Assembly: GCA_002506365.1 (NCBI GenBank)
Contig: DAXK01000024.1
Location: 30,944-94,943 of the forward strand
Direction: 5' to 3'
Length of the DNA stretch: 64,000 nucleotides
Origin: an archaeon UBA583
GTDB taxonomy: Archaea > Nanobdellota > Nanobdellia > Woesearchaeales > UBA583
A model generated the notes under the pieces. The model was not told the DNA's origin. It was given only the letters and a program-made list of their open reading frames with translations, and did no database searches. Below, piece by piece: positions 601 through 26,884 of the stretch (position 1 is the first letter of the stretch; each line of letters opens with the position of its first letter). The translations under genes and the position numbers were made by a program.

Positions 601-1776
601 TTAATTTTTCCCTCCATGTTTATTCATAAAATCCTTTAAATTCTCAATATACACTTCAACCATTCTAAATCTTCCTTCCTTTAATTTATTCTTAGCTAAC
701 TTTAAATCCATTCTAACATCTTCAACATTAGTCCCTCTAGCCTCTAAAGCATCAATAAACCCTGAAACTTGTTTTAAATAATTTGAATAATTCATATACT
801 TAACCAATAACTCATCAGATAACTTATGAGGATTATGAACAGGTGGTTTAATATCTACAAACCAAGGTCTTCCCTCATTATAATGAGGATTTTGAAATAA
901 CCCAGTCCCAATACTCATCCTAGTAATTCTCTCAGCATAAATTTCTCCATATTTAGATTTAGCCTTTGCAATATCAGACATACTCTTAGTATTTAATTGA
1001 ATCTCAGTTAAAACATTTCCTTGTAAAGCTTCCTTAAAATCCGCACTTACTTGTGAAACCATCAATACTCCAATTCCCCACTTTCTAAATTCTCTCGCTG
1101 CTTTCTCTAAAGCTAAATATCCCCCTGAACCTCCATACTTTTCTAACATCCTATGGATTTCATCAAACACTAAAAGCATCTTTAACCTATTAGCTTCTCC
1201 CCACTTCATTTGGAAAATTGTATCAACAATATTTGAAACAGCAATATCATACTCACCAGCTTTCAAATTATTTAAATTAAAAATTGTAACTTCACCTGGA
1301 TTCATATAATCCTTAAAATCTAAATCAAACTTAGGAGTATCAACATTATAAATAATTCCCTTATATGATTTAACATCATCCTCAGACATTCCAAACTTTT
1401 TAAAATACTTTAAAATATTTTCATCCTTATTACTACCTAAAAATCCAGTCCACTGCGCAGTTGGATCAAAAATTACTACAGGAATATTTTTATCTAAAAC
1501 TCCCTCAACAAATACTGAAGAAGTAACAGACTTACCTGAACCAGTAGAACCTGCAACCAAACCATGAGTTAAAAAATCATTAACATCAAAATAAGCTGGT
1601 TTATTAGTCCCACCAATCTTTCCAATTAAAACAGTTGAATCTCCATTAACAGGTAACTTTTTCAAATCAGGAATAATATATTTGGATTTTTTAAATAAAT
1701 TATCTCTATAATTTTTATAAAATCTATATCCAACATATACAACAATAGGAACAATAATAATTAATAATAATAAAAT
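601..1776 (-). other. TM helix (nt 1726-1776) plus cytoplasmic P-loop ATPase domain of FtsK/HerA/VirB4 type
   Basis: Walker A HGLVAGSTGSGKSV is at nt 1528-1551 and Walker B MLLVFDEIHR at nt 1159-1176. GIGVLMVSQ follows, then a C-terminal coiled-coil tail. The motif pattern matches DUF87/HerA-like ATPases as I recall them. Confidence 0.75.
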
Positions 1777-14600: not shown

Positions 14601-17600
14601 CTTGGACTAATTTGAGCATTACTAAAATCATCATAAAAAACCACATCATTTTGTGAAACATTTTCAAATACTGGTAAAGTTGGATTTAAATTTCCTGATA
14701 AAATAACTCCCACTTTAAACTCACCAACATTATAATCACATGTAGGTTTTAAAGCACTAAAACATTGACCATTTGAATTTGTTAAAGAATCCTCATAAAT
14801 CGTTCTTTGCCCTAAACTATTTTCAACAAACCAATCACACCTATACCCAGACCAAGTTCCAGTATATTCTGAAGATGCAATAGCTAAACCATTTCCAGTG
14901 GTAATTTGAGCTGAAATACTTTCTAAAGAATTATTATGTCTAGAATACTCATCCTCTGTTGTAATTTGAATATTTAATACATCATCAACACTTAATAAAA
15001 CAGAAGTATTAACAACCGCATACATTAAAGAATCAACACTAGCTTGTAAATCAATTGAACCAAATACGTCAGCTGGAATAATCCAATTATCATTTTGTTT
15101 AGTTGAAATAACTGAAAAATCTCCAGTATCCGTTTCTAAATATTTCCAGAAAACATCACCATTATTAACATTTACAGAATTTCCACAAGAATCTAAAATT
15201 CCTAAATCAAAAACTAAATTATCTCCTGTATCATAAGCAATTGAATTAACTGGTGAATCAATAGATAAAGTAATATTATCTTTTAAGAATACTGAATCAG
15301 TTAAATTAGTATCTACAAAATACTTATTAGTATTATAATTAGTTAAATAAATTTCATAATTAATTTGACCTAAAGCAATTGAACACACATTTAAATTTGG
15401 AATATTTTTGATAAAACTTGTAAAAGTACACTTCCCATTTGAATCAGAAGTAACTGTTTTAGTTTCACCTAAAATTTCCAAATTACAATAAACTCCTTGT
15501 TCAGTAATAATATTATTCTCACTATTTGTTAAACTTACAACTAAATCCTCATTTGAAGTTCTAAAAATTGTAGCACCTAAATTAGCACTTGCAAGTAAAT
15601 CAGATTTAAAAGTTTGATTTAAAACTTCAGACTGAAAATCATCAAACCCTTTTGATGAAACAACAACATAATAATAATAAGTATCTGGATTATAAAAACT
15701 AGGTAATTGTAAACTACATGTTGAATTTCCAACATTTGATAAAGTATTTCCTAACAAACTAGGATTATTTCCAACTGAATCAGTTTGATAATAATTACAA
15801 ATAATATCTCCTAAATTTGGAGCATCTAAAGTCCCATTTTCATAAACATTAATTACTAAATCTCTAGATAAACCAGTATCAACTTTCACAATATCTAATT
15901 GTCTATTTAAAACTTCAAAAGTTCCTTGTTCAATAATTTTATCTCCTAAATAATTTTTAGAAACTCTCTCAAAATCTTTAACAATAATTTTATAATTAAC
16001 AATTCCAACATAATTATTTCCTAATTGAAAATTAACTTCTCTATTAACTCCAACACCAGGAGTTGTTGAAATATTTTCAACTGATAAATTTACCCACTTA
16101 CTTTGTTTTAAACTATAAACTTGAAAAATTACTTGAACATCATCACCCTCTAAATCTAAAACTGAATAATTTAATTTTTGATTTCTATTTCTCTCAAAAG
16201 AATATGAATCAAAAGTTACATTTGAAACACTAGGTCTATCATTAATTAAACCAAAAGTTCCATAAGAAATTTCTTCCCCATTATCTAATTGTTCAATAAC
16301 AAAATTAATTTCACTTACATTTTCATTAACAATTTGTGAACACGCATAATAATTTTTACCATTTAAATTAAACTTTGTATAAAAATCAGTTAATACTTTT
16401 TCAGATCCTTTCACAAAATCATCTAAATAACAATTATTAATTGGACTTAAACTAACATTTGAGATAGACAAATTATTTTCATCCTTAACTAAAAAATTAA
16501 TGCTTGAATAAGAATTATCAGATAAATCAATTGAATTAATTTTACTCACAACATAATTAATACTTGAAGTTGAATAACTTGAATTTAAACTAATTTTTTT
16601 ATTTAAATAATTTCCAAGTAAATTTGAATCTAAAGTGCTTGAACTCTCAATCACTGGAACTACTTTATCATTATATAAAAAATAATCCTTATCACGATTA
16701 ATAGAATAAAATAATCCAAAATCACATCCATTTGAAAACCCTTCTTTATCTAAATCTTGAAAACTTGAACTATCACAAGAATTTACAATTAAACTATTTT
16801 TATCATAAACTTCAATTCCTCCAACAACATAACCTGGTAAATTTGAAAACTTTTTAATTTTTAAAGGAGCAAAATCATTATTATAATTAATCTGAACCCC
16901 ATCAGCAAAATAACTTTGCCCAGCAAATAAATTTGATTTAAAATTAAAGTTATCAACTAAAACTTCACTAACTAATTCATCTGAATCTAAACTAAAAATC
17001 ATTGTTAAATCAGCTAAAAATTCTGGATTAAAATTTGAAGTTACAAATTTTAATGGAACAAAAATATCCATAATTCCAGAAAAGACTTCAGAACTCATAA
17101 AACTATTAACACTACCATTTAAATTCGGTAAAGTTATTTTATTCACAAAATCATCTACATAATTATAACTTGATACTCCATCAACTAATATTTCAATTCC
17201 ATCAATTGCAGATAAAGATAATTTAGTTACATCATAACCTGAACTTGCTAAAATAACTCCAGTAGTTGTCTTATCAACTTCAAAATTATTAAAATATTTA
17301 TCAATTGTTAAAACTCTTTTTTGTGAAAAAGTATTATCAAAAATTACAAACTTAGAAACTCCAGAATCTTTTGTAACCACAATAATTTCATCTCTTAAAT
17401 CTCCTAAAACATCAAGTTTTAAAACATCAACTAAAACACCATCCGCGTTTAATAAATTTCCAGTCTTAAAAACATTCAAATTATAATCATAAACTACATA
17501 ATTTAAATTAGAATTAATCACAAATAATTTATCAGTAACTTCAAATTTAGGTTTATTAAATCCTGTAAAAGAATCAATTAAATTCCCTTCACTTGAATAT

Positions 17601-20600
17601 ACAAATAACTCATTTTCATTTGAAACAAAAATTTCTTTCCCAATATCTGTTGTTAAATCATTTGAAACTAAATATCTATATGAAAACCCACTAATTGATT
17701 TCTCAAATAATTCATTTCCTAAAGAATCATAAGCTACTAAATTTCCTAAACTTGAAATTCCAACATACTCATCACCAACTAATTGTTCAAAATTATAATA
17801 TGAAAAATCAACTTCTCCTGACAATAAACTTAAAACTCCAGCAGTATCTGAAAAACTATTTCCAGACTTTGAACTAACTAAACCTAAATTAAACTGATTA
17901 TCTTGATCACAATTAAAACAACTAAAAGAAACATTCTTAGCTTGATTACAAGAAATAGGAACTGACACCTCACTAAAATCATAACTATTTGTAACCTTTA
18001 CATCTAAAATTAAACCACCATTTGTTGTTAAATTTCCTAAAGCTAAATTATCTGAACTTGTTAAAGTTTTAGCAAAAAATATATTTGCATTCTCAGAACA
18101 TAAATCACATTTAATATTTAACTTATCAGGAATTTGATTACAACTAACACTCACATCTAAACTACTATTATCTTCAAGATTAGTTCCTAATACATTAAAA
18201 TACGGACTCGAAGAAATTGAATTTGAATTATAATTAATTACTCCTTGTGAAACATTAAAAACTGGAACAGTATAATAATTATTTCCATCACAATTTGGAC
18301 AATTAAAATTATAACTCTTAGAAGATAAATCCTCACAAGAAACAGGAACTGAAACTTTATCAAAATTATAACTTGTATAAGTTTCATAAGAAACTTCCGC
18401 TGTAATATTTCCAACAACTCTTACACTATTTTGAGTATCACAACTAGCGCAACTTAAAGTTAAATCATTATTCTCTAAAGCATTACAACTAACTTTTCCA
18501 GTTACAACTTGATAATCTAAAGATTCTTTAGTATAAACTTCAAATAAAGGATTTAAATTATTTGTTGAATAATACTCTTTAGTTGAATTTCCATATTCAA
18601 TAAATGAATTTAAATCATACTTAGATTGATTTTGTAAACCTAACTCAAAATAATTACTATTATCACAACCTGAACAAGAAATTGAAACTTGAGGTTTAGT
18701 TTCCAACAATGAACAAGGAACATCAAACTCAACTGGACTAGCAGTTGGACTACAAGCTGAAACAGTATTTGAATCAATATTAAAAGTATTTGAACTAAAA
18801 AATACTTCTAAATTATTTGAACCAACTCCATTATAACAAGTATCCAATTTAACTTTACAAGTTTTAAACTTAGAAACATCACCAATAAATAAATTTGTAT
18901 CAAAAACAAAATTATCTGATAAACTAACTTCATTATTTTTACCAATTAAAACTGAATCAGATTTATCAAAACTATCTTGAGCTGTATACTCAATAAAATT
19001 CTTTTTACTAACAGTTGCTAATGAAACTAAATCTGAATCAGTAACTACATCAAAACTTAAATCTAATCCAGACATATCTCCAACTCCTACAACTCCAACT
19101 GAAACTTCACAAATTTCAGCATTAGTATTAGATAGATTATTTGAAATTACTTGAGTAGCAGAATCTAAATCAAAATAATTTATAACATTTAAAACATCAA
19201 AATTTTTATAGCTTTGGTATCCAGAACTTAAAATTGAATTAGTATCTAATTTAACTGAACTTGATCCAACATCTAAAAATAAATCATTTTTAACTCCAAC
19301 AGATGAAACTCCAAAATCAACATAACAAGCATCCCCGGACACACTAAAAGGAACATCAATTGTTAATTGAGAACTTGAAGTAATATCTAAAACAGACTTA
19401 GGAACTTCATTTGCAAAAGTTTTCTCATCAAAATTAGTAATTAATTTTAAATTAGATAAATCCATTGAAACTGTTGAATTATCCTTTAATTTAAATGTAA
19501 TATCATTCCCTAAAACTCCTAAATTATTAACTCCCGCCTTAAAACTTAAATCGCAAGTTTCCCCATTTAAATTTTTATAAGTTAAATCAGTTGATAATAA
19601 TTTATTTTTTAAAGATAAAAAACTATCAGGAGTTACTCCAGACTCAATATCATAATTTGAATCAAAAATAATTGAAGAATCAATTTGATAGTTATTACCA
19701 TCAATTGAAACATTAACATCAGGATTTCCTAATTTTGTTGATTTAAAAAACACATTACAACTATTCCCAACACCAATACCTAAAGAAGATAAATTTACAA
19801 AAATTTCTGAACTAGTATTTAAACTTAAAACTAAATCAGTTAAATCTGATTTTAAAACATTTGAATATCTTGTATAAGAACTAAAACTATCAAAAACATC
19901 ATACAAAATTAACTCATCATTTGAAATTTTACTAACACTTGAAAAATCATTAGTCCAAACACCTAAAGAATCCCCATAAATTAAAACATTACTCCTACCT
20001 CCAAACTCTCCAAAACTTAAAAAATTAATTTCATTGATAAACTCAGAACTCCACAAAACATTACTCAAATTATCTGAACTTAAAACTTTCAATTTATTAT
20101 TTGAAAAAACTGCAAAATTATTTTGATAAATTCCAGAATTTAAAAATAATAAATTATCAACATTAATTGAATATTTTTCTGACTCAATTGAATTTTTCTC
20201 AAAAGATAAAACAGACTCAGAATTTAAAACTACTTTACTTCCATTAACAAAAGCTGGAACTCTAAATAAATATTCTCCAGAATTATTAACTAACAAATAA
20301 GACTCATTATTTTCACAACCAACAACACCCAGTCCATAAAGACTACAACTCTCAATTAAAATTGAACCAGCTAAATCAAAATCTCCGGCTAATTTGTAAT
20401 CAATATATTTCAAACTAACAGTTTGAATTAAAGTATTTGATGAATCAAAAAAATTAATAGATGTATTTTCAAATAAATTTAAATTTTTATTTTCTAAAAT
20501 AACTTTCCACCTTTTTTTATAATAATCATCTGCAACTGTATAAGTTTGTCCTAAAACAGCTAAATTTTCTAAACTCCAAATTGGATCATTAGAACTTAGA

Positions 20601-20812
20601 TCTTTTGTTGAACTTATAGAAAGAACTTGTGAATTTAAATTTATAAATTCAAAACTCAATCCCATATCATCATAATCTAAAGTTTCAAAATAAATTGTAA
20701 CCTCACTAGAATTTTCTGATATGAAAACATCTCCAAACTGGAAACTGTAAACATTTGAAATAAACATTAAAAATGTTATGAAATAAATAATTTTGTGAAG
20801 TAATTTTTCCAT
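5627..20812 (-). CDS. Giant secreted surface/adhesin-like protein (about 5061 aa from the ATG)
   Basis: One uninterrupted ORF. The track start at 20818 is TTG. An in-frame ATG at 20810-20812 sits about 26 nt from a TATA-like box. N-terminal signal is LLHKIIYFITFLMFISNVYSF. Content includes beta-propeller-like repeats, many Ig/Big-like modules (TDSNGKCTF, TDNLGTCEINW, TDVLGTCKILW), a possible CBM-like module near nt 6470-6900 (..EGAFYVDRFELF) and an A/G/S linker (nt 6241-6310). No C-terminal TM helix is seen. The stop overlaps the next ATG. Confidence 0.9.
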   Translation of the reverse strand: MEKLLHKIIYFITFLMFISNVYSFQFGDVFISENSSEVTIYFETLDYDDMGLSFEFINLNSQVLSISSTKDLSSNDPIWSLENLAVLGQTYTVADDYYKKRWKVILENKNLNLFENTSINFFDSSNTLIQTVSLKYIDYKLAGDFDLAGSILIESCSLYGLGVVGCENNESYLLVNNSGEYLFRVPAFVNGSKVVLNSESVLSFEKNSIESEKYSINVDNLLFLNSGIYQNNFAVFSNNKLKVLSSDNLSNVLWSSEFINEINFLSFGEFGGRSNVLIYGDSLGVWTNDFSSVSKISNDELILYDVFDSFSSYTRYSNVLKSDLTDLVLSLNTSSEIFVNLSSLGIGVGNSCNVFFKSTKLGNPDVNVSIDGNNYQIDSSIIFDSNYDIESGVTPDSFLSLKNKLLSTDLTYKNLNGETCDLSFKAGVNNLGVLGNDITFKLKDNSTVSMDLSNLKLITNFDEKTFANEVPKSVLDITSSSQLTIDVPFSVSGDACYVDFGVSSVGVKNDLFLDVGSSSVKLDTNSILSSGYQSYKNFDVLNVINYFDLDSATQVISNNLSNTNAEICEVSVGVVGVGDMSGLDLSFDVVTDSDLVSLATVSKKNFIEYTAQDSFDKSDSVLIGKNNEVSLSDNFVFDTNLFIGDVSKFKTCKVKLDTCYNGVGSNNLEVFFSSNTFNIDSNTVSACSPTASPVEFDVPCSLLETKPQVSISCSGCDNSNYFELGLQNQSKYDLNSFIEYGNSTKEYYSTNNLNPLFEVYTKESLDYQVVTGKVSCNALENNDLTLSCASCDTQNSVRVVGNITAEVSYETYTSYNFDKVSVPVSCEDLSSKSYNFNCPNCDGNNYYTVPVFNVSQGVINYNSNSISSSPYFNVLGTNLEDNSSLDVSVSCNQIPDKLNIKCDLCSENANIFFAKTLTSSDNLALGNLTTNGGLILDVKVTNSYDFSEVSVPISCNQAKNVSFSCFNCDQDNQFNLGLVSSKSGNSFSDTAGVLSLLSGEVDFSYYNFEQLVGDEYVGISSLGNLVAYDSLGNELFEKSISGFSYRYLVSNDLTTDIGKEIFVSNENELFVYSSEGNLIDSFTGFNKPKFEVTDKLFVINSNLNYVVYDYNLNVFKTGNLLNADGVLVDVLKLDVLGDLRDEIIVVTKDSGVSKFVIFDNTFSQKRVLTIDKYFNNFEVDKTTTGVILASSGYDVTKLSLSAIDGIEILVDGVSSYNYVDDFVNKITLPNLNGSVNSFMSSEVFSGIMDIFVPLKFVTSNFNPEFLADLTMIFSLDSDELVSEVLVDNFNFKSNLFAGQSYFADGVQINYNNDFAPLKIKKFSNLPGYVVGGIEVYDKNSLIVNSCDSSSFQDLDKEGFSNGCDFGLFYSINRDKDYFLYNDKVVPVIESSSTLDSNLLGNYLNKKISLNSSYSTSSINYVVSKINSIDLSDNSYSSINFLVKDENNLSISNVSLSPINNCYLDDFVKGSEKVLTDFYTKFNLNGKNYYACSQIVNENVSEINFVIEQLDNGEEISYGTFGLINDRPSVSNVTFDSYSFERNRNQKLNYSVLDLEGDDVQVIFQVYSLKQSKWVNLSVENISTTPGVGVNREVNFQLGNNYVGIVNYKIIVKDFERVSKNYLGDKIIEQGTFEVLNRQLDIVKVDTGLSRDLVINVYENGTLDAPNLGDIICNYYQTDSVGNNPSLLGNTLSNVGNSTCSLQLPSFYNPDTYYYYVVVSSKGFDDFQSEVLNQTFKSDLLASANLGATIFRTSNEDLVVSLTNSENNIITEQGVYCNLEILGETKTVTSDSNGKCTFTSFIKNIPNLNVCSIALGQINYEIYLTNYNTNKYFVDTNLTDSVFLKDNITLSIDSPVNSIAYDTGDNLVFDLGILDSCGNSVNVNNGDVFWKYLETDTGDFSVISTKQNDNWIIPADVFGSIDLQASVDSLMYAVVNTSVLLSVDDVLNIQITTEDEYSRHNNSLESISAQITTGNGLAIASSEYTGTWSGYRCDWFVENSLGQRTIYEDSLTNSNGQCFSALKPTCDYNVGEFKVGVILSGNLNPTLPVFENVSQNDVVFYDDFSNAQISPRISPLYTTGQADDVFYGNENQLSLEFSDSCNNFESSIANPIWSYVDSSRGVDLIFGDGFNVSYIPSSIMRGSSSVVVNLNDSTYYRFGNVIENITIVNTAKITDLIVPSYLTPNAVNQISCRVSVSGVSDLSFYQTEFDVGGNRFNVSTDSNGLAVLNINSNTLNTGAQEVYCRIYDFENPNYKIEADNSTYQFKELNLPDDLSIIGNVIFGNREYDLTKSSIGNIIYPHNMNNYTVYRKSIYPLYGPEKLYAGVEFATIGAVGTSKEGQQILVDGANVSMSIYRTSNGNLIDTVSCIQDPNKSNLGLTNPRDSIDNYHLKNCNLEWNPDNLPVGEYNVVISAAVPGQTGWTSEVYNADFEIWGILNSTLTIPAENARLVVNQNNNFNTHVYDEFGTRLDSSSVSVDYLIRDASENCYGVYLGTVSGGSDNTFAKTMNIYSINNYVVNDYRINDNWKIFTKSYGDFYETLDTYSSYELGPVHTCNYFWKERTFIDENNIYFDYPVNVDMITPEAAIIAPIDIGENSGKMKFVCRVRTFHGTAVPYAPTKLSCDGCNTINPTITQNGDSTGIIEKYITPVVSDYGNSYDFTCDVDNLLNIGNGNRLVVSGPATRNVLMSETLGTGWGDLPENYTFPTLSVGAYSDSSCSQPVTWVKSANAGDVYIGFSTSKGSDDLQSYRIEQSPITGSFPGPTPSEGSLIAAADSKCVRFSAMTKSNGVNAYTFKVKIQDESLVSQGSFFEKSVTVYIDDVGPKVQTITVEKPYYKPGANANVFVNLNPLTIGVDGLNDMKDIRYSEDTAYDKSFSKDSEGNWSASVVVPGSSGTNTFNLRIRDQSLYKDDKTFSIFVDDTEPTINTATVDSGCAGLPLTYGTACSPNTNFQIDVSDDNQIDRVRVTGSGLGNIYDSGTNGVNAGTFSKLDMVKNTNSLGDGTYAITFEAWDEAGNRGFTTVNLKVIKTGVVLNSLTQSKTYLSGTGDTADITGTVSSNVDLTIKEVISQSVNQCVASGQSCGVSAAIDASGFVEGKNTVTITAKDSLDNPTSKNFDFYLDTTLPVVTITTLVNDQYVKGSISVKANVVDVNRDNSLVSFTIGSCTETMTYISANQFSKSFDTTKPCVGGDGTKTLTVSATDKSGKVGSQSIDLKIDNTLPVVVISDPADGLVTENTHKVLATITEANFANAKAKVDSEVETLMICSGSGLTRNCEFDVITTGYSDGDHSVTVKATDNSGNQKSLVRNFKIDNNAPTINIYKVSNSDGRAYTSGIDGNYISGNMKLFATINDAADEGVDTTYDCIVDGTTYDMVSEGADAYSCTIDTTGISDGTYIFTVQAKDTLDNLNSKTVSLNVDNLNPVITGESFSGSLIKSGDSQTFSLTAGEPLYDICKVFYSDNGVLDGGDDEIVSVAVSGNTCGTTYSMSEGAGVSGNKFILVELTDRAGNKAVKSYDFVLDNAAPIIRSFGITNAEPSSPVTGGFPGVSPLKNMSWSSWVDENNGVNNLSRVYIRPVSGIGVDTNLREDLVYNGGINRFELTDKLPTYFGGTEGTTVFEVVAQDLVGNVGTDDFTFFISNSPPVINSVTSDVALLEVAEQSVVITSNITATPVTLRDLTFNIAEPDGNTFVYNFPQGGFTSPDSFDSYTFTPRVAGFHSVEVVATNIGNKNQTQTFTNVFNAVGTTSGSLTLSPQVSNADPIYVGEDYSFDLQVKLDNDGLARMKNSQLIFSGDGLKVDATNSIVNCGTILTGNFCLTTVRVTLDENVGNGNKLFFVLSNWKNVDSSNGFVSDTFTVNIDPTNRVRIISNELEKFDLNVGFNPQNIGLVNIQNYGNDKLDNVDISIYNGTLKQGLDNSDFTISFTPASYSSLAVSESKTFSMDMFSATARGNYNGYLKVDSTECLDDTCRSFVFTNISIFGKADSDFVQTVPLNNVIDKSSNVVTSLLATQGAIDFHCKYFDSLNVNSLIQNYPAELVLDSNLGESILLSNNTYNLSGPNVPGSLQYIWNFTTYSPGDYSLICRPKDDDSNFVKAGAQAVRNVTLIGNIIPTISYDYPATCLGSLYLYDSIACNNVNVTVNLKDFYGYPVINSQVNFTTNATEFNTLDQIGSCYTDNLGTCEINWNPDVLTAGIYNVSVLAGKSYYNSGNTSSEIQILGGYGLKILSPLDNILIYQDNYNFDFEVTDIDGSDITNSLSYNTTWSLESSAGSKVLSSSRAFNWNIDNTVLGNYNLTAKIQIGPDEVIAQRNVVVVRDTLIGSLTVENDILFRESLDILDITQSNVSVLVTDSATGLNVNNSNVMFKLNGVTDLGTCQTDVLGTCKILWNPSINLEAGVHNVSAFVSKQNYYNKSFSDLATVKVYVEPKWNTPSTISGELSNQFNMPLVCEVYESYKTVANPTEKFDTKFYMHKPAVLPKYVLGSVVNVDGVIYSWNSEDATNVTAQFSELFVGFDTKTNISVYETSSPVEDLGFNNLDTVSVEFNELSGGTTWDLLIQTPSGFETVFSGESSLSNSAFIGSNKQIKNVYIVFNGGAGASIKLSKVVLEQTITEETLEIGEAIILGSQFSSNPEVFGNLENFVGEDSIGFRSSANVNSLSSSEFNEDGDRSLGLNVSGVATNGVMDLEWNSPNLNDVSSFASLGFVVNNPNNLTLNLTVSILDETNCLVNFDLGEVKGKLSYPDINLSQFNSICNSNLDKLVLSFENVGQDPVEGAFYVDRFELFKSVLTENALASLNFHPYEYGDFRFSCEISDVANYVVKNSSKEKIIKLINSGSSADAGESAGGASDAAGAAASAGSVLSFELDLIEGDYVSANGAKGELETVKLYNLISSSRTFNISSSNNNLINFEGKNSTIVEMDEDTKVSEFIVSFDTTNIVKAQLEEFLLVTDIVSGESISVPIKLTLVDVNINVINPTSSSKLVDVLGANVYEINSNVEFNSSASYDGEFDKFGYEFKVANEVCETDYYGRVGDGLNIGCMMPFVKSNMLEDLIMRVNLGGSQNE
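9870..12370 (-). repeat. Tandem array of about eight Ig-like (Big/cadherin-like) domains
   Basis: Eight domain boundaries recur roughly every 95-110 aa: YIDDVGPKV, FVDDTEPTI, YLDTTLPVV, KIDNTLPVV, KIDNNAPTI, NVDNLNPVI, VLDNAAPII, FISNSPPVI. Confidence 0.6.
17880..18730 (-). repeat. Five tandem 60-75-aa repeats, each carrying a C-x(9-12)-C-x2-C triad
   Basis: PCSLLETKPQVSISCSGCDNSNYF; SCNALENNDLTLSCASCDTQNSV; SCEDLSSKSYNFNCPNCDGNNYY; SCNQIPDKLNIKCDLCSENANIF; SCNQAKNVSFSCFNCDQDNQF. Confidence 0.65.
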
Positions 20813-20833
20813 ATACAAATTAATATCATTTTC

Positions 20834-21115: not shown

Positions 21116-22006
21116 TTAATATTTTTCTAAATTTAAAGGATCTAAAATCCATGATAATAATTTAATTAAATATTCTAAAATATAATAATGAATTACTACA
21201 AAAATTGAACTTACAATAGAGCAAAATAAAATAATAAAACTAATCACAACTGAATAAATTAATTTTAAAATTTTAAAAGAATAATCTTCTTGAAAACTCT
21301 TTGCCAAAACTGCCTTATATGCCTTAACATCAAACAATTTATCATCCTCAGTATCTTTTAAATACCTATTAAAATCATCAAAAAACTCATCAAAATCTTT
21401 ACAATTTACAATTTCATTTTTCTGACAAGATTCAATATATCCAGTGATAAAACCTTGCTCATAAGCATCTAATTTATAAGGAACAATAATAGAACCAGAC
21501 TGCTCATTCATTTTATCAATAATTATTAAATATTCATCAACAAACCCAGAATCATCATAAGCAATAAAAAAAATTGTTGAAAATAAAACTCCCAAAATAA
21601 TTAAAACATAAGAATTTAAAATAATTAATTTATCCAAATTAAAATATCTATCTTGCTTAGAAAAATGATAAAAAATAAACAAACTTATAACAACAAAAAT
21701 TAAATAAAAACTACTTAAAGACAAATACCCTAAAGAAAAAGTTAAAATAGTTGAAATAAATAAAGAAATTATCACAAAAATAACCCCAACTAATTTTGAA
21801 AAATAATTTTTAAAAATAAAATATAAAACAAAATCTATCGATAAAAAAGTAAAGGACAAAATCCCCAAAAATAAAATTTCAAATGAACTAAAAAGACCAA
21901 AAACTTTATCATACAAAAAATCAAATAGTAAATTAAAACTTATAAAAGTTAAAGTTAAAAAAAATATAACTAAACTTGAAAAACCTACGAATTTTTTTGA
22001 AAACAT
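21116..22006 (-). CDS. Polytopic membrane protein, function unknown
   Basis: 296 aa with an ATG start. Several N-terminal hydrophobic helices are followed by an acidic soluble segment and a C-terminal helix. I recognise no motif. Confidence 0.6.
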   Translation of the reverse strand: MFSKKFVGFSSLVIFFLTLTFISFNLLFDFLYDKVFGLFSSFEILFLGILSFTFLSIDFVLYFIFKNYFSKLVGVIFVIISLFISTILTFSLGYLSLSSFYLIFVVISLFIFYHFSKQDRYFNLDKLIILNSYVLIILGVLFSTIFFIAYDDSGFVDEYLIIIDKMNEQSGSIIVPYKLDAYEQGFITGYIESCQKNEIVNCKDFDEFFDDFNRYLKDTEDDKLFDVKAYKAVLAKSFQEDYSFKILKLIYSVVISFIILFCSIVSSIFVVIHYYILEYLIKLLSWILDPLNLEKY

Positions 22007-22126: not shown

Positions 22127-22975
22127 TTAACGTTTTTTACAAACCACCTTATTTCTACCTTCATCTTTTGCTTGATATAAAGCTGAATCAGCAAGTTCTT
22201 TTAAAACACTAGTATCCCTATAACTATTAGTATAACTTGATACTCCAAAACTACAAGTAATATTCCTATCAACAAAAAAAGAATCTAATTCATCACCAGA
22301 AGTCTCACCAACTATCAATAAATCTTGTCTATGTGAACTTGATAAATCATGAGCAGTAGTATGATTTAACCCATAGTGCCCAATAACTAATCTATCTTCA
22401 ATACTCTCACGAATTCTATTAGCTACAATACCAGCAGATGCTAAATTTGTTTCAGGAAGTAAAATTGAAAATTCCTCACCACCATACCTAAAAGCTACAT
22501 CCCTTGGCCGTAAATTATCCAAAATAATCTTCCCAAAAAGAGTTAAAGTATCATCACCAACAGAATGACCATAAGTATCATTAACAGCCTTAAAATTATC
22601 TAAATCACACATAATATAACTAAAATCAGATGAAGAACAATTCTGAAAATCAACTGACAAAGAATCCAATTTTCTTTCTAAAAAATCACGCTTTCTTAAA
22701 CAAGTTAATTCATCAACAGATAATTTATTAATCTCATTTAATAAATTGGCAGCTAAATCAAAATCACCATCAGCAATATGTTTATTATAACTAGGAGCAA
22801 ATCCATAAATCATAAAATTTTTAAAAAAATCATTTAATTGGCTAGATCTAGAAGTTCGATTTTTATCTAAATCATTAGGCGTTTTCAAAAAATCAATTAA
22901 ATCAAAAAATTCAGAACCACCTTTAAAACCTAAAGACAATTCAACTAAATTCCCAGACCTATCATATAATTTCAT
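22127..22975 (-). CDS. GGDEF-domain protein (putative diguanylate cyclase) with intact GGEEF active site and RxxD I-site
   Basis: DNFKAVNDTYGHSVGDDTL...LRPRDVAFRYGGEEFSILLPET...SFGVSSY...ADSALYQAKDEGRNKV. GGEEF is at nt 22469-22483. RPRD lies five residues upstream of it. Confidence 0.8.
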   Translation of the reverse strand: MKLYDRSGNLVELSLGFKGGSEFFDLIDFLKTPNDLDKNRTSRSSQLNDFFKNFMIYGFAPSYNKHIADGDFDLAANLLNEINKLSVDELTCLRKRDFLERKLDSLSVDFQNCSSSDFSYIMCDLDNFKAVNDTYGHSVGDDTLTLFGKIILDNLRPRDVAFRYGGEEFSILLPETNLASAGIVANRIRESIEDRLVIGHYGLNHTTAHDLSSSHRQDLLIVGETSGDELDSFFVDRNITCSFGVSSYTNSYRDTSVLKELADSALYQAKDEGRNKVVCKKR

Positions 22976-23070
22976 AAATACTTAAGTTTTTTAGCATATA
23001 TAAAGTTATCTCTTATAAGTAACAAAAAAATAAAGGAAATTATATTTATTTATACAATAAATAATTTAAA

Positions 23071-24753
23071 TTAAATAATATCGACAATATCTTCAACAAT
23101 TAACTCAAAAGCAACTACTGGAACTAATAAACCAAAATTATTCAAAACAACTGGTGATACCTCCCCAATAAATCCAACCGATTTACCACCAACTAAAATT
23201 TCAGCTGAACGACCAGCAATTAAAAACGGAATTTCATCATTAACTTTAATTTCAAAATCAATATTATTTAATTTCATAAATGTATCTAAAACTCCTTTAA
23301 TTTGTGTATAATTTGTTTTTGGATCAGCAATTGCAGAACAAATATGTCTTGTATTTTTAGCCCCAGTTTCACAAGATGAATCCTTTTGAATAGTAAACCC
23401 ATTTTCAAAAACTTTTTGCGGATATTTATTTTTTCTATTAATTAACAAAGATTCCAAAATCTCAGGTAAAATTCTAACTCTCAACATATTTAAACCTTGA
23501 TCCTCCGAATCAATTAATTTTTCAAATTCCTTATCAGGTTCATCAAAATTCATTTTATTAAATTGAGTTTTAGTTGAACTTAACATATAAGAATATAATT
23601 CTAAAAACCCAAAATTAACCATAGTTTGAGACAATCTTTGAGTAAAATCACAAACTTCTAATGTTGAACCAACTGTTGCAATTTCTGGTAAAGCTGGAAC
23701 AATATTATTATACCCATAAGCTCTCGCAATATCATCAGCAATATCAGAATCATGCCAAATATCAGCTCTAAAAGGTGGAATTAAAAAGGTAATTTCATCT
23801 CCTGAAACAGATTCAACTTCAAGCATAACTTTTAACGCTAAATCTTTAATTTCATCACTATCCACATTAATCCCAATTAATTTGTTAATATAATCTAAAG
23901 AAACAGTATCCTTTGAATTATCCAAATTTAATTCATAAACTTCCCCATCTGAATACTCAACAGATACAGCTTCAGCACTACACCCCAATTCTAAAAATGT
24001 AGTAGTTAAAACTTTCAATAAATTATCTAAATAAGTTAAATTAAAACCTGAAATCTCAACAAATAAATCTTTATGATGTAAATCAACCCTACCAGTTTTA
24101 TTTGAATTAATAACAGGAGGTAAACTTAAAACTTCATTATTTAAATCACGAAATACTGGAAAAACTTTGTGTCCAGATAATAAATGAGCAAACTTTTTCC
24201 CAGTCTCATGAGACTCTAAAATTTCATTTGCATTCATTTCACCCTCACCCTCAAGAGGAGCAAATACAATATCCTCAGGTTTCTCACCAGAAAATGTTAC
24301 TGGAAACTTAAATTCATCCATAGGATAAATTCCAATTGAAGCTTTTTTTCTATGACGTCCAAAACTATCATGAATTTTTTCCTGAATTTCAATCATCTCA
24401 TCTAATAACTCTTGAGTCATATTTACATCTCGTAAAATAACACAAACAGTTTTTGGACGAACTGAATCAACAGAAGACTTAACAATAACTTTATTTGTAG
24501 CAGGAGCTAATTTATAATTAGGCAAATTTTTAGAAATTCCCCTATAATATCTAATAGCCCTACCGATACCAACAGTTGATACCATATCCATTTTTTCAGC
24601 AGTAATTTCTACTTTCATCTCAGGATCTTTTTCATCTGAAATTCCCTTCATATCCATACCCATCTCCTTTAAAGTTGTATCAATTTGTTCAACTGATAAT
24701 TCTTCAAGAGCATATTCATTAATTTTTGATTGTTTTGCATATACATAAACCAT
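23071..24753 (-). CDS. pheT: Phenylalanine--tRNA ligase beta subunit, archaeal type
   Basis: 560 aa. Matches include LPPVINSNKTGRV and IPPFRADIWHDSDIADDIARAYGYNNI. It sits directly downstream of pheS. Confidence 0.9.
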   Translation of the reverse strand: MVYVYAKQSKINEYALEELSVEQIDTTLKEMGMDMKGISDEKDPEMKVEITAEKMDMVSTVGIGRAIRYYRGISKNLPNYKLAPATNKVIVKSSVDSVRPKTVCVILRDVNMTQELLDEMIEIQEKIHDSFGRHRKKASIGIYPMDEFKFPVTFSGEKPEDIVFAPLEGEGEMNANEILESHETGKKFAHLLSGHKVFPVFRDLNNEVLSLPPVINSNKTGRVDLHHKDLFVEISGFNLTYLDNLLKVLTTTFLELGCSAEAVSVEYSDGEVYELNLDNSKDTVSLDYINKLIGINVDSDEIKDLALKVMLEVESVSGDEITFLIPPFRADIWHDSDIADDIARAYGYNNIVPALPEIATVGSTLEVCDFTQRLSQTMVNFGFLELYSYMLSSTKTQFNKMNFDEPDKEFEKLIDSEDQGLNMLRVRILPEILESLLINRKNKYPQKVFENGFTIQKDSSCETGAKNTRHICSAIADPKTNYTQIKGVLDTFMKLNNIDFEIKVNDEIPFLIAGRSAEILVGGKSVGFIGEVSPVVLNNFGLLVPVVAFELIVEDIVDII

Positions 24754-24836: not shown

Positions 24837-26402
24837 TTACTCATTACCTCCAGTTCTTTTTACAATTTTTCTTGTCATCATTGGCCTATTCTTTAACCAA
24901 TCAAAATCACAAGTTGTCCCAGTAATATCCCTCATTGAAGCTTTCCCAGCAAGTAATGTTGCAACTCTACTTGCACCCATACCCCAAGCAATTACAGTTT
25001 TCCCTCCTAAACCTAATGGTTCTAAAGTTTCTTGTCTAAAAATTCCAGAATTAATTAAAGCATACCACTTATCCATTTTTTCATCATAATAATGTGCTTC
25101 CATTGAAGGTTCAGTATAAGGATTAAAAGTTGGTTTAAATCTAATTTTATCAATACCTAATTTATTATAATAATCACGAACAAATCCCATCAAATGTGCT
25201 AAACTTAAATTATCTCCAATAATAAAACCTTCTGCTTGAAAAAACTCAGCTAAATGAGTTGCATCAATTGCTTCATTACGAAAATTATGAGCAACATAAA
25301 AATACTTCCCATCAACATTCTGACCTCCCTTTAATTTCTCACCTAATTCAGCAAGAGTTCTAAAAGTTGTAGCAGTTGAATGAGTTCTAAGCAATCTCTT
25401 TGAAGTAATATCTTTTGACCATTCCCCCTTAGGAGTATGTGCTTTCTTTAATCCTGATTCATGCATAATTTTAACTTTCTCAACTAATTGAGCAGGAACT
25501 TTCGCTGACCCATCCAAATAAAAAGTATCTTGTTCATCTCTAGCAGGATGATCTTGTGGAATCCACATTGAATCCATATTCCAAAAAGCAGACTCAACCA
25601 TTGGCCCCTCCATCTCAGAAAATCCCATCTCAACAAAAACATTCTTTAAAATTGAATTTGCTTCAAGCATAGGGTGAAATCTTCCAATATTATCATACCC
25701 TGCTGAAACATCAACATCATAATGTCTAAACTCAATATTTTTCAAATTATCAGATTTTAACATCTCAGGTTCTAAAGCTTCCGCCAATTCTAAATCAGAA
25801 TACTTCCCATCAATCTCAGAACATACACTTTGACCAAGATCAGTTAAAGAAAAAGTAAAACCCTTAATGGAAATTTCTTTTAAAAATTTAGGACGCCTTT
25901 TTAATTCATTAAAACTAACTTGTAAATCTTCAGATAAATCCTTAACTAAAATACCATCTTTAAAAGCAGATAAAGGATTTACAAAATCATCAACAAATTG
26001 TTTAGCATTTTCATTAGCAGTAAAAATTTGTTCATCTTCTTTTCTAATTGAAATTAAATTATTTTTCTTTAAAATACCAAGAGCTGAACCAACTAAAGAT
26101 TTATCTAATTTTAACTCAGACATCTTTTTTTCACCATCCAACAATTCATTTAAAAATGTAATTTCAGGTAATTCAGATTTTAAAAATTCCTCACCAAATT
26201 TATCTAAAACAATCTTTTTTTCTTCAAACTTAGAAATAGAAACATATCCTTTTTGTTCAAGTAATTGAACTCCAGTTGTAACTTCTGCAATATTTAACCC
26301 TATTTTTTCACAGATTTGAGAAATATCTCCAATCGAAATTAAAGGTAAAACTTTTCTCTCCAAAGGATGAAGAGAATAAATAATTTTCTTTAAATCAGTC
26401 AT
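24837..26402 (-). CDS. pheS: Phenylalanine--tRNA ligase alpha subunit, archaeal/eukaryal type
   Basis: 521 aa. Matches include HPARDEQDTFY, LLRTHSTATT, FRNEAIDATHLAEFFQAEG and GMGASRV. Confidence 0.9.
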   Translation of the reverse strand: MTDLKKIIYSLHPLERKVLPLISIGDISQICEKIGLNIAEVTTGVQLLEQKGYVSISKFEEKKIVLDKFGEEFLKSELPEITFLNELLDGEKKMSELKLDKSLVGSALGILKKNNLISIRKEDEQIFTANENAKQFVDDFVNPLSAFKDGILVKDLSEDLQVSFNELKRRPKFLKEISIKGFTFSLTDLGQSVCSEIDGKYSDLELAEALEPEMLKSDNLKNIEFRHYDVDVSAGYDNIGRFHPMLEANSILKNVFVEMGFSEMEGPMVESAFWNMDSMWIPQDHPARDEQDTFYLDGSAKVPAQLVEKVKIMHESGLKKAHTPKGEWSKDITSKRLLRTHSTATTFRTLAELGEKLKGGQNVDGKYFYVAHNFRNEAIDATHLAEFFQAEGFIIGDNLSLAHLMGFVRDYYNKLGIDKIRFKPTFNPYTEPSMEAHYYDEKMDKWYALINSGIFRQETLEPLGLGGKTVIAWGMGASRVATLLAGKASMRDITGTTCDFDWLKNRPMMTRKIVKRTGGNE

Positions 26403-26545: not shown

Positions 26546-26884
26546 ATGGCAATAGCAATGATTACATCATTATTTGAAATTTGGGAAACTGTATTAGCAG
26601 TTTTACTTTTATTAGTAATTAGTACAGGAATTATTTTTGTATACAATCCAGACCTAATCCAAGCTAAAACTTTAAATAATGAATTATCATATATTGCAAG
26701 TATCAAAGGAGACAAAGATTTCCAAATTGTTTTAAATCTAGAAAATGCAGAAGAAATAAAACTTGAAAATAATAAAGATTTAAGTTCTATAAAATTAACA
26801 GTTGGAGAAAAATCAACAACAAAACAATACATTGGAACAGACATTAATATTAAAAAAGAAAATAATCAAATTTTAATTTCATAA
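26546..26884 (+). CDS. Small N-terminally anchored protein, function unknown
   Basis: 112 aa with an N-terminal hydrophobic segment (LFEIWETVLAVLLLLVISTGIIFVY) and a TATA-like box about 33 nt upstream. I prefer it to the overlapping antisense ORF 26527..26844, whose S/F/L-rich composition looks like a shadow frame. Confidence 0.45.
   Translation: MAIAMITSLFEIWETVLAVLLLLVISTGIIFVYNPDLIQAKTLNNELSYIASIKGDKDFQIVLNLENAEEIKLENNKDLSSIKLTVGEKSTTKQYIGTDINIKKENNQILIS

What the first reader, a model, noticed from the sequence alone, without database searches (positions are those of the whole stretch)
22127..22975. Apparently active GGDEF diguanylate cyclase in an archaeal genome, directly upstream of the giant surface-protein cluster
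Seen in sequence: a complete GGDEF domain with GGEEF (nt 22469-22483), the RxxD inhibitory site (RPRD) exactly five residues upstream, and conserved DxLT/GD and YxAK segments. The gene lies between unambiguous archaeal genes on the same strand. Its composition looks like its neighbours, which argues against contamination.

Established knowledge: c-di-GMP signalling is essentially bacterial, and GGDEF proteins are, to my knowledge, very rare in archaea. In bacteria c-di-GMP classically controls giant adhesins, as in the Lap system.

Inference: the protein may regulate the adjacent surface cluster, or it may make a nucleotide signal aimed at a bacterial partner. The roughly 115-aa N-terminal region has no recognisable sensor domain.
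Basis: partly seen in the sequence, partly recalled or inferred. Interest (0 to 1): 0.7.

Follow-up and report, generated by a model that had tools for sequence, protein, structure and literature searches.

The report
Genuine diguanylate cyclase gene in DPANN archaeon
A small archaeon of the Nanoarchaeota/Woesearchaeota group really does carry an intact, selection-maintained copy of a bacterial-type c-di-GMP synthase whose only other relatives are in the marine bacterial genus Psychromonas, but nothing ties it functionally to the giant surface proteins next door.

Summary
Window 22127-22975 (-) encodes a 282-aa protein with a full GGDEF domain (Pfam 2.4e-38). GGEEF lies at 22469-22483 and RPRD five residues upstream. 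Every PleD catalytic, guanine-binding and I-site residue is conserved, and the AF2 model has the canonical fold.

The gene is not contamination. Its GC3 (0.117) matches its neighbours. The PheS-PheT-GGDEF order recurs in six further independent assemblies. dN/dS against a 98.6%-identical strain is 0.21.

New findings:
- The protein belongs to a family with a unique 86-aa N-terminal domain. That domain is found only in this archaeal clade and in Psychromonas (47-56% identity over the full length).
- The locus after PheT is hypervariable within the archaeal clade. It holds three allele classes only 30-37% identical, distributed incongruently with PheT, plus one pseudogene and one loss.
- The direction of transfer is unresolved. 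NJ trees nest Psychromonas inside an archaeal grade, but long-branch attraction is likely.
- The giant-protein cluster follows the gene only in the window's sublineage. No EAL, HD-GYP, PilZ, LapD/G or riboswitch is present in the window.

Verdict: a probably active stand-alone diguanylate cyclase shared between domains by horizontal transfer. It is a new member of a known kind in an unusual host, of moderate interest. The proposed link to the surface proteins is unsupported.

The parts
22127..22975 (-). GGDEF diguanylate-cyclase gene, 282 aa plus stop (type A allele of the clade-specific locus)
   Evidence: ORF. Pfam and NCBIfam matches. An identical protein occurs in the AYRE01 contig and in Logan SRR5037119. 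dN/dS is 0.21 against strain L092.
22718..22975 (-). Family-specific N-terminal domain, aa 1-86: a beta-hairpin plus four helices, the last of which (72-85) leads into the GGDEF domain. Probably a dimerisation or partner-binding module (inferred).
   Evidence: AF2 models have pLDDT 82-96 over this region. There is no PDB fold match. A profile of this domain finds only 2 clusters among 1.84 billion representatives, both from this family. There are zero non-synonymous changes against L092.
22130..22717 (-). GGDEF catalytic domain, aa 87-282
   Evidence: Pfam PF00990 matches in two stretches. Foldseek finds 3ign and 5euh at TM 0.88 and PleD at E 3e-15.
22469..22483 (-). A-site motif GGEEF (aa 165-169)
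   Evidence: Read directly from the sequence and aligned to PleD G368-F372.
22499..22510 (-). I-site RxxD (RPRD, aa 156-159), five residues before GGEEF. The partner Arg (R187, equivalent to PleD R390) is also present.
22271..22384 (-). 38-aa insertion in the beta4-beta5 hairpin region (aa 198-235). The motif GHYGLNxxTAxDL is conserved in the family. A low-confidence loop spans residues 220-226.
   Evidence: Split Pfam and PDB alignments, the family alignment and the AF2 secondary structure.
22997..23004 (-). TATA-box-like TTTATATA, ending 22 nt upstream of the ATG. This fits an archaeal promoter with a leaderless or near-leaderless mRNA (inferred). There is no Shine-Dalgarno sequence.
   Evidence: Sequence. 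The element is kept at the same spacing in L001, whose coding sequence is 67% identical. This is weak evidence in 26% GC DNA.
21116..22006 (-). 296-aa multi-pass membrane protein with no family match. It follows the type A GGDEF allele in the window, L083, L092 and L001 only.
   Evidence: No Pfam, NCBIfam or PADLOC hit. The ortholog is 85-90% identical in L001 and 98.7% in L092. It is absent from the other relatives' loci.
23071..24753 (-). Archaeal-type PheRS beta subunit, the conserved upstream anchor of the locus
   Evidence: TIGR00471 scores 429 bits. Relatives are listed.
24837..26402 (-). Archaeal-type PheRS alpha subunit
   Evidence: PRK04172 scores 410 bits.
5627..20818 (-). 5063-aa giant ORF with bacterial Ig-like domains. 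Context only; no demonstrated link to the GGDEF gene.
   Evidence: Big_13 and Big_3_3 matches. No homolog lies next to the GGDEF gene in any other locus.
601..5634 (-). 1677-aa ORF with a C-terminal HerA/FtsK-type ATPase. Context only.

Best explanation
The gene encodes a cytoplasmic, stand-alone diguanylate cyclase and is a genuine resident of a DPANN (Nanoarchaeota/Woesearchaeota-type) genome.

It belongs to a small protein family with two parts. The first is a unique 86-aa N-terminal domain. The second is a GGDEF domain carrying a conserved 38-aa hairpin insertion. The family exists only in this genus-level archaeal clade and in the bacterial genus Psychromonas, so it crossed the domain boundary by horizontal transfer. 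Bacterium to archaeon is the more likely direction, but this is not settled.

Inferred mechanism, from conserved residues and fold:
- Two monomers pair through the N-terminal helices.
- Each GGDEF domain binds GTP-Mg2+ through the residues equivalent to PleD D327, E370, N335, D344, K442 and R446.
- The dimer condenses two GTP into c-di-GMP.
- The product feeds back on the RxxD/R187 I-site.

In the window's lineage the gene is kept by purifying selection and appears to have its own archaeal-type promoter. Across the clade the locus is a recombining, hypervariable accessory locus with three deeply divergent allele classes, one pseudogene and one loss.

What the c-di-GMP acts on in the archaeon is unknown. 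No receptor or phosphodiesterase is visible in the 64-kb window.
For: Domain, motifs and fold:
- (details in the observation check).

Native to the archaeon:
- GC3 is 0.117, against 0.08-0.21 for the neighbours and 0.32 for the Psychromonas aquimarina homolog. RSCU correlation with the window pool is 0.87.
- The PheS-PheT-GGDEF order recurs in independent assemblies: L001, L083, L092, L087, L093, L094 and the pseudogene in L085/L086.

Selection:
- Against L092 there are 24 synonymous and 21 non-synonymous changes, giving dN/dS 0.21.
- Against L001, dN/dS is 0.42, compared with 0.22-0.27 for PheS/PheT.

Family restriction:
- All full-length hits at 47-55% identity that carry a name are Psychromonas. 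The next hits drop to 36% identity and cover the domain only.
- The N-terminal profile hits 2 clusters in 1.84 billion representatives.
- The metagenome scan returned 16 loci, all 41-48% identical to the query's N-terminal region, which is the Psychromonas-type range.

Clade distribution and allele classes:
-.
- L001 and L094 have 89% identical PheT but 36% identical GGDEF.
- L093 and L094 have 80% identical PheT and 50% identical GGDEF.

Recombination:
- dS is 0.19 in nt 227-776 of the gene, against 0.014-0.046 in the flanking genes.
Against: - No enzymatic evidence exists. c-di-GMP has never been detected in any archaeon (PMC10249747).
- No EAL, HD-GYP, PilZ or riboswitch lies in the window. 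A signalling circuit therefore cannot be closed, although only 64 kb of the genome could be searched.
- Loss, pseudogenisation and near-neutral divergence in sister lineages (dN/dS 0.84 for type A against type C) show the gene is dispensable.
- NJ trees place Psychromonas inside an archaeal grade. Support for A+Psychromonas is 86-98% and for archaeal monophyly 0-1%.
- The Psychromonas-type gene is AT-richer than its neighbours in 9 of 9 loci.
- Both of the last two points fit the opposite direction of transfer.
Confidence: 0.65

Rival explanations
1. The cyclase controls the adjacent giant surface-protein cluster, in the way c-di-GMP controls LapA-type adhesins.
For: The gene is adjacent to the cluster on the same strand. 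The type A allele is always followed by the 296-aa membrane protein in the three lineages where the downstream DNA is known: window/L083, L092 and L001. Allele class therefore co-varies with downstream content.
Against: - Type B and type C alleles at the same locus are followed by unrelated genes.
- The giant ORFs have no homolog in the flanks of any other locus fetched.
- No LapD, LapG, PilZ or T1SS component is present.
- T-rich tracts after the stop codon, and a conserved TATA-like element in front of the membrane-protein gene, suggest separate transcription units.
- From established knowledge, the Lap mechanism needs a periplasm and an outer membrane.
- The adjacency is seen only among close relatives, where linkage alone explains it.
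Confidence: 0.1
2. The gene is a non-catalytic or decaying remnant. On this view it is a horizontally acquired passenger drifting towards loss, or a GGDEF domain used only as a nucleotide-binding or protein-interaction module.
For: - A pseudogene with frameshifts and stop codons in L085/L086, and a deletion in L088.
- dN/dS of 0.84 between type A and type C.
- Type B alleles have GGEEI or GGDEI and lack the Lys equivalent to PleD K332. L094 also lacks the R366 equivalent.
- The protein changes about six times faster than PheT between close strains: 20 of 282 residues differ, against 7 of 560.
Against: In the window's own lineage every catalytic and I-site residue is intact. dN/dS is 0.21, and 0 over the N-terminal domain. 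The L001 ortholog, 67% identical, also keeps the Asp, Lys, Asn, GGEEF, I-site, Lys and Arg positions in the family alignment, which has PleD numbering.
Confidence: 0.15
3. The origin is reversed. The family diversified in the archaeal clade, after an older acquisition of a GGDEF domain, and a type-A-like allele was later passed from the archaeon to the ancestor of Psychromonas.
For: - With generic GGDEFs as outgroup, the NJ topology is (C,(B,(A,Psychromonas))). A+Psychromonas has 86-98% support under three distance corrections.
- Archaeal alleles at one syntenic locus are far more diverse (30-93% identity) than the sequenced Psychromonas alleles.
- The Psychromonas-type gene has lower GC3 than the mean of its neighbours in 9 of 9 loci.
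Against: - Types B and C are long, apparently relaxed branches. Attraction to the distant outgroup is expected with NJ at 65-70% divergence.
- By local BLAST and phmmer, type C is closest to the archaeal type A proteins (140-144 bits), ahead of Psychromonas (124-137 bits).
- GGDEF domains are overwhelmingly bacterial.
- The gene is widespread in Psychromonas. Eight named species or strains carry it, with partly conserved synteny.
- Low GC3 can also reflect low expression.
Confidence: 0.25
4. The gene is an assembly chimera or bacterial contamination of an archaeal bin.
For: The closest named homologs are bacterial. The literature warns that archaeal GGDEF hits may be contamination (PMC5847659).
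Against: - The same gene order appears in at least seven independent assemblies from different runs and sources: NCBI AYRE01, Logan SRR5037119, ERR13834999, ERR13913584/6 and SRR28416765, three JGI metagenomes, and ENA ERZ23488174.
- GC3 and codon usage are native.
- No composition break occurs at the gene.
Confidence: 0.01
5. The enzyme is a Hypr-type GGDEF making cGAMP, or part of a cyclic-nucleotide anti-phage system in which the downstream membrane protein is the effector.
For: The arrangement of a stand-alone cyclase followed by a multi-pass membrane protein resembles CBASS or Pycsar operons in layout. The locus is hypervariable and recombining, as defence islands are.
Against: - The Asp aligned to PleD D344 is retained. 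From established knowledge (Hallberg et al. 2016), Hypr enzymes have Ser at that position.
- PADLOC gives no hit for the cyclase or the membrane protein.
- The membrane protein does not accompany type B or C alleles or the Psychromonas genes.
Confidence: 0.04

Closest known systems
Uncharacterised Psychromonas GGDEF family of 272-275 aa (for example the P. aquimarina protein P0007, and those of P. hadalis and P. marina)
   Same: The full-length architecture is shared. This covers the unique N-terminal domain, the GGDEF domain with the GHYGLN..TA.DL hairpin insertion, the RxxD motif and GGEEF. Identity is 47-56% over 98-99% of the length.
   Different: The host domain of life differs. The archaeal gene has GC3 of 0.12 against 0.25-0.34. 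The genomic context also differs: the archaeal gene follows PheT, whereas the context in Psychromonas is variable. No member of the family has been characterised.
PleD / WspR / GcbC / Marinobacter 3ign GGDEF domains (structurally solved diguanylate cyclases)
   Same: The catalytic domain fold matches (TM 0.88 to 3ign and 5euh). All A-site, guanine-binding, phosphate-binding and I-site residues are shared.
   Different: There is no REC, GAF, PAS or transmembrane input domain. An orphan 86-aa N-terminal domain takes their place. There is also an extra 38-aa insertion after helix alpha-3.
SiaD and DgcB: small DGCs with an N-terminal helical stalk, controlled by partner proteins or dimerisation
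   Same: They are similar in size, with a helical N-terminal stalk leading into the GGDEF domain. Foldseek covers 215-228 columns against 7e6g and 6ttr.
   Different: The N-terminal part shows no sequence or fold similarity. No SiaC-like partner gene is nearby.
Previously listed archaeal GGDEF proteins: Methanocella arvoryzae CAJ37382, and the REC-GGDEF (inactivated) of Ca. Micrarchaeum acidiphilum
   Same: These are also GGDEF domains annotated in archaeal genomes (PMC5847659).
   Different: The Micrarchaeum domain is described as inactivated, and the authors regarded such genes in unfinished archaeal genomes as possible contamination. The protein here has an intact active site, native composition, multi-assembly synteny and measurable purifying selection. 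I did not compare the sequences directly.
LapD/LapG/LapA c-di-GMP-controlled adhesin system
   Same: The only shared feature is a cyclase gene lying near a giant repetitive surface protein.
   Different: There is no LapD, LapG or T1SS, no outer membrane, and the adjacency is not conserved.

Membership tests
GGDEF diguanylate cyclase (PF00990 / TIGR00254) | A significant match to the family profile, above the curated cut-off | tested here: met
   PF00990 scores 131.9 bits against a cut-off of 23.8. TIGR00254 scores 134.8 against 37.4.
GGDEF diguanylate cyclase (PF00990 / TIGR00254) | A-site motif GG[D/E]EF with the metal-binding acidic residues (PleD D327, E370, E371) | tested here: met
   GGEEF is at residues 165-169. 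D124 aligns to PleD D327.
GGDEF diguanylate cyclase (PF00990 / TIGR00254) | Guanine-specifying Asn and Asp (PleD N335, D344) and phosphate-binding Lys and Arg (K442, R446) | tested here: met
   N132, D141, K270 and R274 align to these positions. They are invariant or nearly invariant in the family alignment.
GGDEF diguanylate cyclase (PF00990 / TIGR00254) | Palm-like beta-alpha-alpha-beta-beta-alpha-beta fold | tested here: met
   The AF2 model has pLDDT 88.8. Foldseek finds PleD at E 3e-15 and 3ign/5euh at TM 0.88. This rests on a prediction, not a solved structure.
GGDEF diguanylate cyclase (PF00990 / TIGR00254) | Product-inhibition I-site: RxxD five residues before the A-site | tested here: met
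   R156-P-R-D159 is followed by five residues and then G165. R187 aligns to PleD R390.
GGDEF diguanylate cyclase (PF00990 / TIGR00254) | Synthesis of c-di-GMP from two GTP by a homodimer | not testable with these tools
   This needs recombinant protein and HPLC or LC-MS.
Hypr GGDEF (cGAMP synthase, GacA type) | Ser in place of the guanine-specifying Asp (PleD D344 position) | tested here: not met
   Asp141 is retained. The criterion itself comes from established knowledge (Hallberg et al. 2016, cited in PMC10249747).
Response-regulator DGCs (PleD / WspR) | An N-terminal REC receiver domain | tested here: not met
   No PF00072 match was found. PleD-family NF007135 scores 137 bits against a cut-off of 474.
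Lap-type c-di-GMP-controlled adhesin system | The LapD receptor (degenerate GGDEF-EAL), the LapG protease and a T1SS next to the adhesin | tested here: not met
   No such domains occur in the non-overlapped window ORFs of at least 90 aa that were scanned. Only the 64-kb window was searched.
Complete c-di-GMP signalling module | A phosphodiesterase (EAL or HD-GYP) and a receptor (PilZ, MshEN or riboswitch) in the same genome | tested here: inconclusive
   None is in the window (Pfam calls as above; Rfam) or in the flanks of the relatives' loci.
Cyclic-nucleotide anti-phage systems (CBASS / Pycsar-like) | A cyclase and effector recognised by defence-system models | tested here: not met
   PADLOC gives no hit for the GGDEF protein or the 296-aa membrane protein.

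The most novel reading that the evidence does not exclude
The exclusive sharing of this protein family may record a physical association between a DPANN archaeon and a bacterial genus. The supporting pattern is a family restricted to one Nanoarchaeota genus-level clade and Psychromonas, a recombining and hypervariable archaeal locus, and trees that nest Psychromonas inside the archaeal alleles. On this reading the archaeon either donated the gene to Psychromonas, or uses c-di-GMP (a bacterial lifestyle signal) to manipulate a bacterial partner. It would be the first indication of c-di-GMP acting across domains, and of a bacterium-associated DPANN lineage.
Probability: 0.08. Interest if true: 0.85.

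Novelty: new member of a known kind. Interest (0 to 1): 0.5.

Why it matters
Reviews of archaeal signalling state that c-di-GMP has never been detected in archaea. They also say that the few GGDEF hits in archaeal contigs still need confirmation as genuine (PMC5847659, PMC10086821, PMC10249747).

This locus is a well-controlled positive case. The gene has an intact active site and native codon usage. It holds a conserved position in several independent assemblies and shows measurable purifying selection. It therefore gives a concrete protein to express and assay for the first archaeal diguanylate cyclase activity.

It also offers a specific inter-domain gene-sharing pair, a Nanoarchaeota clade and Psychromonas, whose ecology could be examined.

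It does not yet show that archaea use c-di-GMP signalling, because no receptor or phosphodiesterase was found.

Tried and rejected
- Genome-contig scan with the full protein.
- Paper searches for the WGS prefix AYRE01 and for the run and sample accessions. The lineage was inferred from named PheT relatives instead.
- Foldseek of the isolated N-terminal domain. It gave no meaningful match, so no sensor type could be assigned.
- PADLOC scan for defence systems. It was negative for the cyclase and the membrane protein.
- Large-database search with the L087 allele. It listed only generic GGDEFs of at most 105 bits, which suggested an independent origin. Local BLAST and phmmer then showed that the window family scores higher (124-144 bits). 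The word prefilter had missed these proteins, so the independent-acquisition idea was dropped.
- The first bootstrap tree with Biopython timed out. It was replaced by a numpy NJ implementation. No ML software was available, so the rooting and the direction of transfer remain open.
- Simple vertical inheritance of one acquired copy was considered and rejected. GGDEF identities do not track PheT identities. Recombination, or differential loss of old paralogs, is required.
- The sigma-70 promoter and intrinsic-terminator scanner was not used, because it does not model archaeal signals.
Full report
**1. The observation**

The minus-strand ORF at 22127..22975 encodes 282 aa. It matches Pfam GGDEF at E 2.4e-38 (131.9 bits, cut-off 23.8) and TIGR00254 at 134.8 bits.

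- RPRD (residues 156-159) lies five residues upstream.
- DELT and YQAK are present.
- Aligned to PleD, all named functional residues are conserved: D327, K332, N335, D344, R359xxD362, R366, GGEEF, R390, K442 and R446.
- An AlphaFold2 model built on a 27-sequence family alignment has mean pLDDT 88.8. It superposes on solved cyclase domains (3ign and 5euh at TM 0.88, PleD at E 3e-15).

There are two corrections.

- The pre-domain region is about 86 aa, not about 115.
- The domain carries a 38-aa insertion (residues 198-235) after helix alpha-3. This splits all profile alignments into two stretches.

**2. The genome is archaeal and the gene is native**

The window carries many archaeal genes:

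- PheS and PheT of archaeal type
- TrmB regulators and LonB
- ribosomal protein S6e
- diphthamide synthase
- Nre, TFS and aIF2-beta
- ATP-dependent DNA ligase

Named relatives of its PheT (55-58% identity) are Woesearchaeota/Nanoarchaeota MAGs. The exact protein is on a 116,864-bp contig of WGS AYRE01.

The gene's GC3 is 0.117. That is within the window range of 0.08-0.21 and far from the 0.32 of the Psychromonas aquimarina homolog. Codon usage correlates with the window pool at r = 0.87. No compositional break occurs at the gene.

A TTTATATA element ends 22 nt before the ATG and is kept at the same spacing in a relative with 67% protein identity. This fits an archaeal promoter and a leaderless mRNA. 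It is an inference, and a weak one in 26% GC DNA.

The order PheS-PheT-GGDEF recurs in independent assemblies from other runs: L083, L092, L001, L087, L093, L094, and the pseudogene in L085/L086. Contamination or chimerism is therefore excluded for practical purposes.

**3. Relatives of the protein**

The only full-length homologs are a tight family of 272-275-aa proteins. Identity is 47-56% at 98-99% coverage. Every named member is from Psychromonas. The next hits are generic GGDEF domains at no more than 36% identity.

Both the N-terminal domain and the hairpin insertion (motif GHYGLN..TA.DL) are conserved across the family.

A profile of the N-terminal 92 residues, searched against 1.84 billion representative proteins, hits two clusters only. 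One is the Psychromonas-type cluster and the other is the archaeal one. The isolated N-terminal model (pLDDT 82) has no PDB fold match.

A metagenome scan with N-terminal patterns returned 16 loci. All are 41-48% identical to the query's N-terminal region, the Psychromonas-type range.

The family is thus shared exclusively between one bacterial genus and one archaeal clade.

**4. Distribution within the archaeal clade**

I walked the contigs of PheT relatives and checked them by tblastn and translation.

| Lineage | PheT identity to window | State of GGDEF after PheT |
|---|---|---|
| L092 | 99% | intact |
| L001 | 83% | intact |
| L094 | 84% | intact |
| L087 | 82% | intact |
| L093 | 81% | intact |
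| L085/L086 | 82% | pseudogene with frameshifts and stops |
| L088 | 84% | absent |
| L091 | 79% | absent |
| L089 | 66% | absent |
| L090 (1.2-Mb contig) | 62% | absent |

The archaeal proteins fall into three classes:

- **Type A**: window, L092 and L001, 67-93% identical to each other.
- **Type B**: L093 and L094, 50% identical to each other. They carry GGEEI or GGDEI, and the Lys equivalent to PleD K332 is lost.
- **Type C**: L087 and the L085 pseudogene. GGEEF is kept, but 7 extra residues sit between RxxD and the A-site.

Classes are only 30-37% identical to one another. All share the family's N-terminal motifs. By local BLAST and phmmer, type C is closer to this family than to any other protein retrieved.

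Class membership does not follow the PheT tree. L001 (type A) and L094 (type B) have 89% identical PheT but 36% identical GGDEF.

Between the window and the 98.6%-identical strain L092, all 45 differences in the gene fall in nt 227-776. dS there is 0.19, against 0.014-0.046 in the flanking genes. This indicates recombination with a divergent allele.

The locus is therefore a recombining, hypervariable accessory locus. Alternatively, it is the residue of old tandem paralogs that were sorted differently in each lineage.

**5. Selection**

All values use Nei-Gojobori/Jukes-Cantor estimates. dS is probably underestimated at GC3 near 0.1, so comparisons among genes are safer than absolute values.

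- Window against L092: dN/dS is 0.21 over the gene and 0 over the N-terminal domain.
- Window against L001: 0.42, compared with 0.22-0.27 for PheS/PheT.
- Type A against type C: 0.84.

The gene is under purifying selection in the window's lineage. It is relaxed or decaying elsewhere.

**6. Direction of transfer**

NJ trees under three distance corrections, with generic GGDEFs as outgroup, give (C,(B,(A,Psychromonas))). A+Psychromonas has 86-98% bootstrap support and archaeal monophyly 0-1%. In addition, the Psychromonas-type gene has lower GC3 than the mean of its neighbours in 9 of 9 loci.

Read literally, this favours transfer from archaeon to bacterium. Against that reading:

- Types B and C are long branches with signs of relaxed constraint, so attraction to the outgroup is expected.
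- Type C's best matches are the archaeal type A proteins.
- GGDEF domains are overwhelmingly bacterial.
- The gene is widespread in Psychromonas.

I rate bacterium to archaeon as more likely, roughly 60:25, with the remainder for a third-party donor. I regard the question as open.

**7. Link to the giant surface proteins**

In the window the gene is followed by three ORFs:

- a 296-aa membrane protein with no family match
- a 5063-aa ORF with Ig-like domains
- a 1677-aa ORF ending in a HerA/FtsK-type ATPase

The membrane protein also follows type A alleles in L092 and L001. Type B and C alleles are instead followed by GH15, or by the 70-aa/HIT/pyruvate kinase genes. Those genes are not in the window. 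The giant ORFs have no homolog in any other locus fetched.

No EAL, HD-GYP, PilZ, LapD or LapG domain was found in the scanned window ORFs, and no c-di-GMP riboswitch. From established knowledge, a Lap-type mechanism needs a periplasm and an outer membrane.

The proposed regulatory link therefore rests on adjacency in one sublineage only.

**8. Mechanism**

Shown:

- a canonical cyclase active site
- an intact I-site
- guanine-specifying Asp rather than the Hypr Ser
- no signal peptide or transmembrane segment in the model

Inferred:

- The N-terminal helices (57-85) mediate the dimerisation that GGDEF catalysis requires, as in the stalk-containing DGCs SiaD and DgcB, which appear among the Foldseek hits.
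- Two GTP are condensed to c-di-GMP.
- The product inhibits the enzyme through RxxD and R187.
- The conserved hairpin insertion and the orphan N-terminal domain are the likely control points. Their ligand or partner is unknown.

**9. Comparison and novelty**

The protein passes every sequence and fold criterion for membership of the GGDEF diguanylate cyclase family. Enzymatic activity could not be tested. It fails the criteria for Hypr, REC-coupled, Lap-associated and defence-system variants.

The literature treats archaeal GGDEF genes as nearly non-existent and unconfirmed (PMC5847659, PMC10086821, PMC10249747). One survey reports c-di-GMP-related genes in 6% of cold-seep archaeal MAGs (PMC12781772).

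This case is a well-validated new member of a known enzyme kind in an unusual host. It adds two points of its own: an exclusive archaeal-clade/Psychromonas family, and a hypervariable locus.

I score interest at 0.5. The finding would be useful to signalling and DPANN specialists and can be tested directly. It does not yet show archaeal c-di-GMP signalling, and the surface-protein hypothesis is not supported.

Noticed in passing
window 601-5634 (-) and 5627-20818 (-): The 5063-aa giant ORF overlaps by 8 nt a 1677-aa ORF whose C-terminus (about aa 1335-1553) is a HerA/FtsK-type P-loop ATPase. The ATPase matches Pfam DUF87/HerA_C and PADLOC HerA/mad8. A giant Ig-domain protein coupled to a membrane-anchored translocase-like ATPase may be a DPANN cell-contact or DNA/protein-transfer apparatus.
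   Followed up: partly
window 22200-22749 (nt 227-776 of the GGDEF gene) against L092:6536-7085: All 45 nucleotide differences between two strains that are 98.6% identical overall are concentrated in the GGDEF-domain part of the gene. dS there is 0.19, against 0.014-0.046 in the flanking genes, and the N-terminal 86 codons have no amino-acid change. This looks like recombination with a divergent allele.
   Followed up: partly
L084, L095, L098, L099, L103-L106, L108 (Psychromonas-type loci): The bacterial homolog has lower GC and lower GC3 than the mean of its neighbouring genes in 9 of 9 loci, by 0.025-0.10 in GC3. This could reflect low expression or an AT-rich foreign origin. It remains unexplained.
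   Followed up: partly
window 26546-26884 (+) and 26946-28955 (+): A 112-aa and a 669-aa ORF with no Pfam, NCBIfam or PADLOC match lie next to PheS on the opposite strand. A same-sized pair of unannotated ORFs holds that position in L085-L088, L090 and L092, and homology was confirmed for L085, L087 and L088 at 64-86% identity. This is a clade-conserved pair of unknown function.
   Followed up: no
whole window: There is a strong and persistent strand asymmetry. GC skew is about -0.25 to -0.5 across most of the 64 kb, and overall GC is 26%.
   Followed up: no
L087:6880-7830, L089:7371-7886, L094:242-640: Some relatives carry an extra unannotated ORF of 130-316 aa between PheS and PheT. It is absent from the window. 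The PheS-PheT pair is therefore itself a site of insertions.
   Followed up: no
window 21116-22006 (-): The 296-aa multi-pass membrane protein is far better conserved between the window and L001 (about 85-90% over the available 85 aa) than the GGDEF gene next to it (67%). Its upstream region, including a TTTAAATA element, is also conserved.
   Followed up: partly
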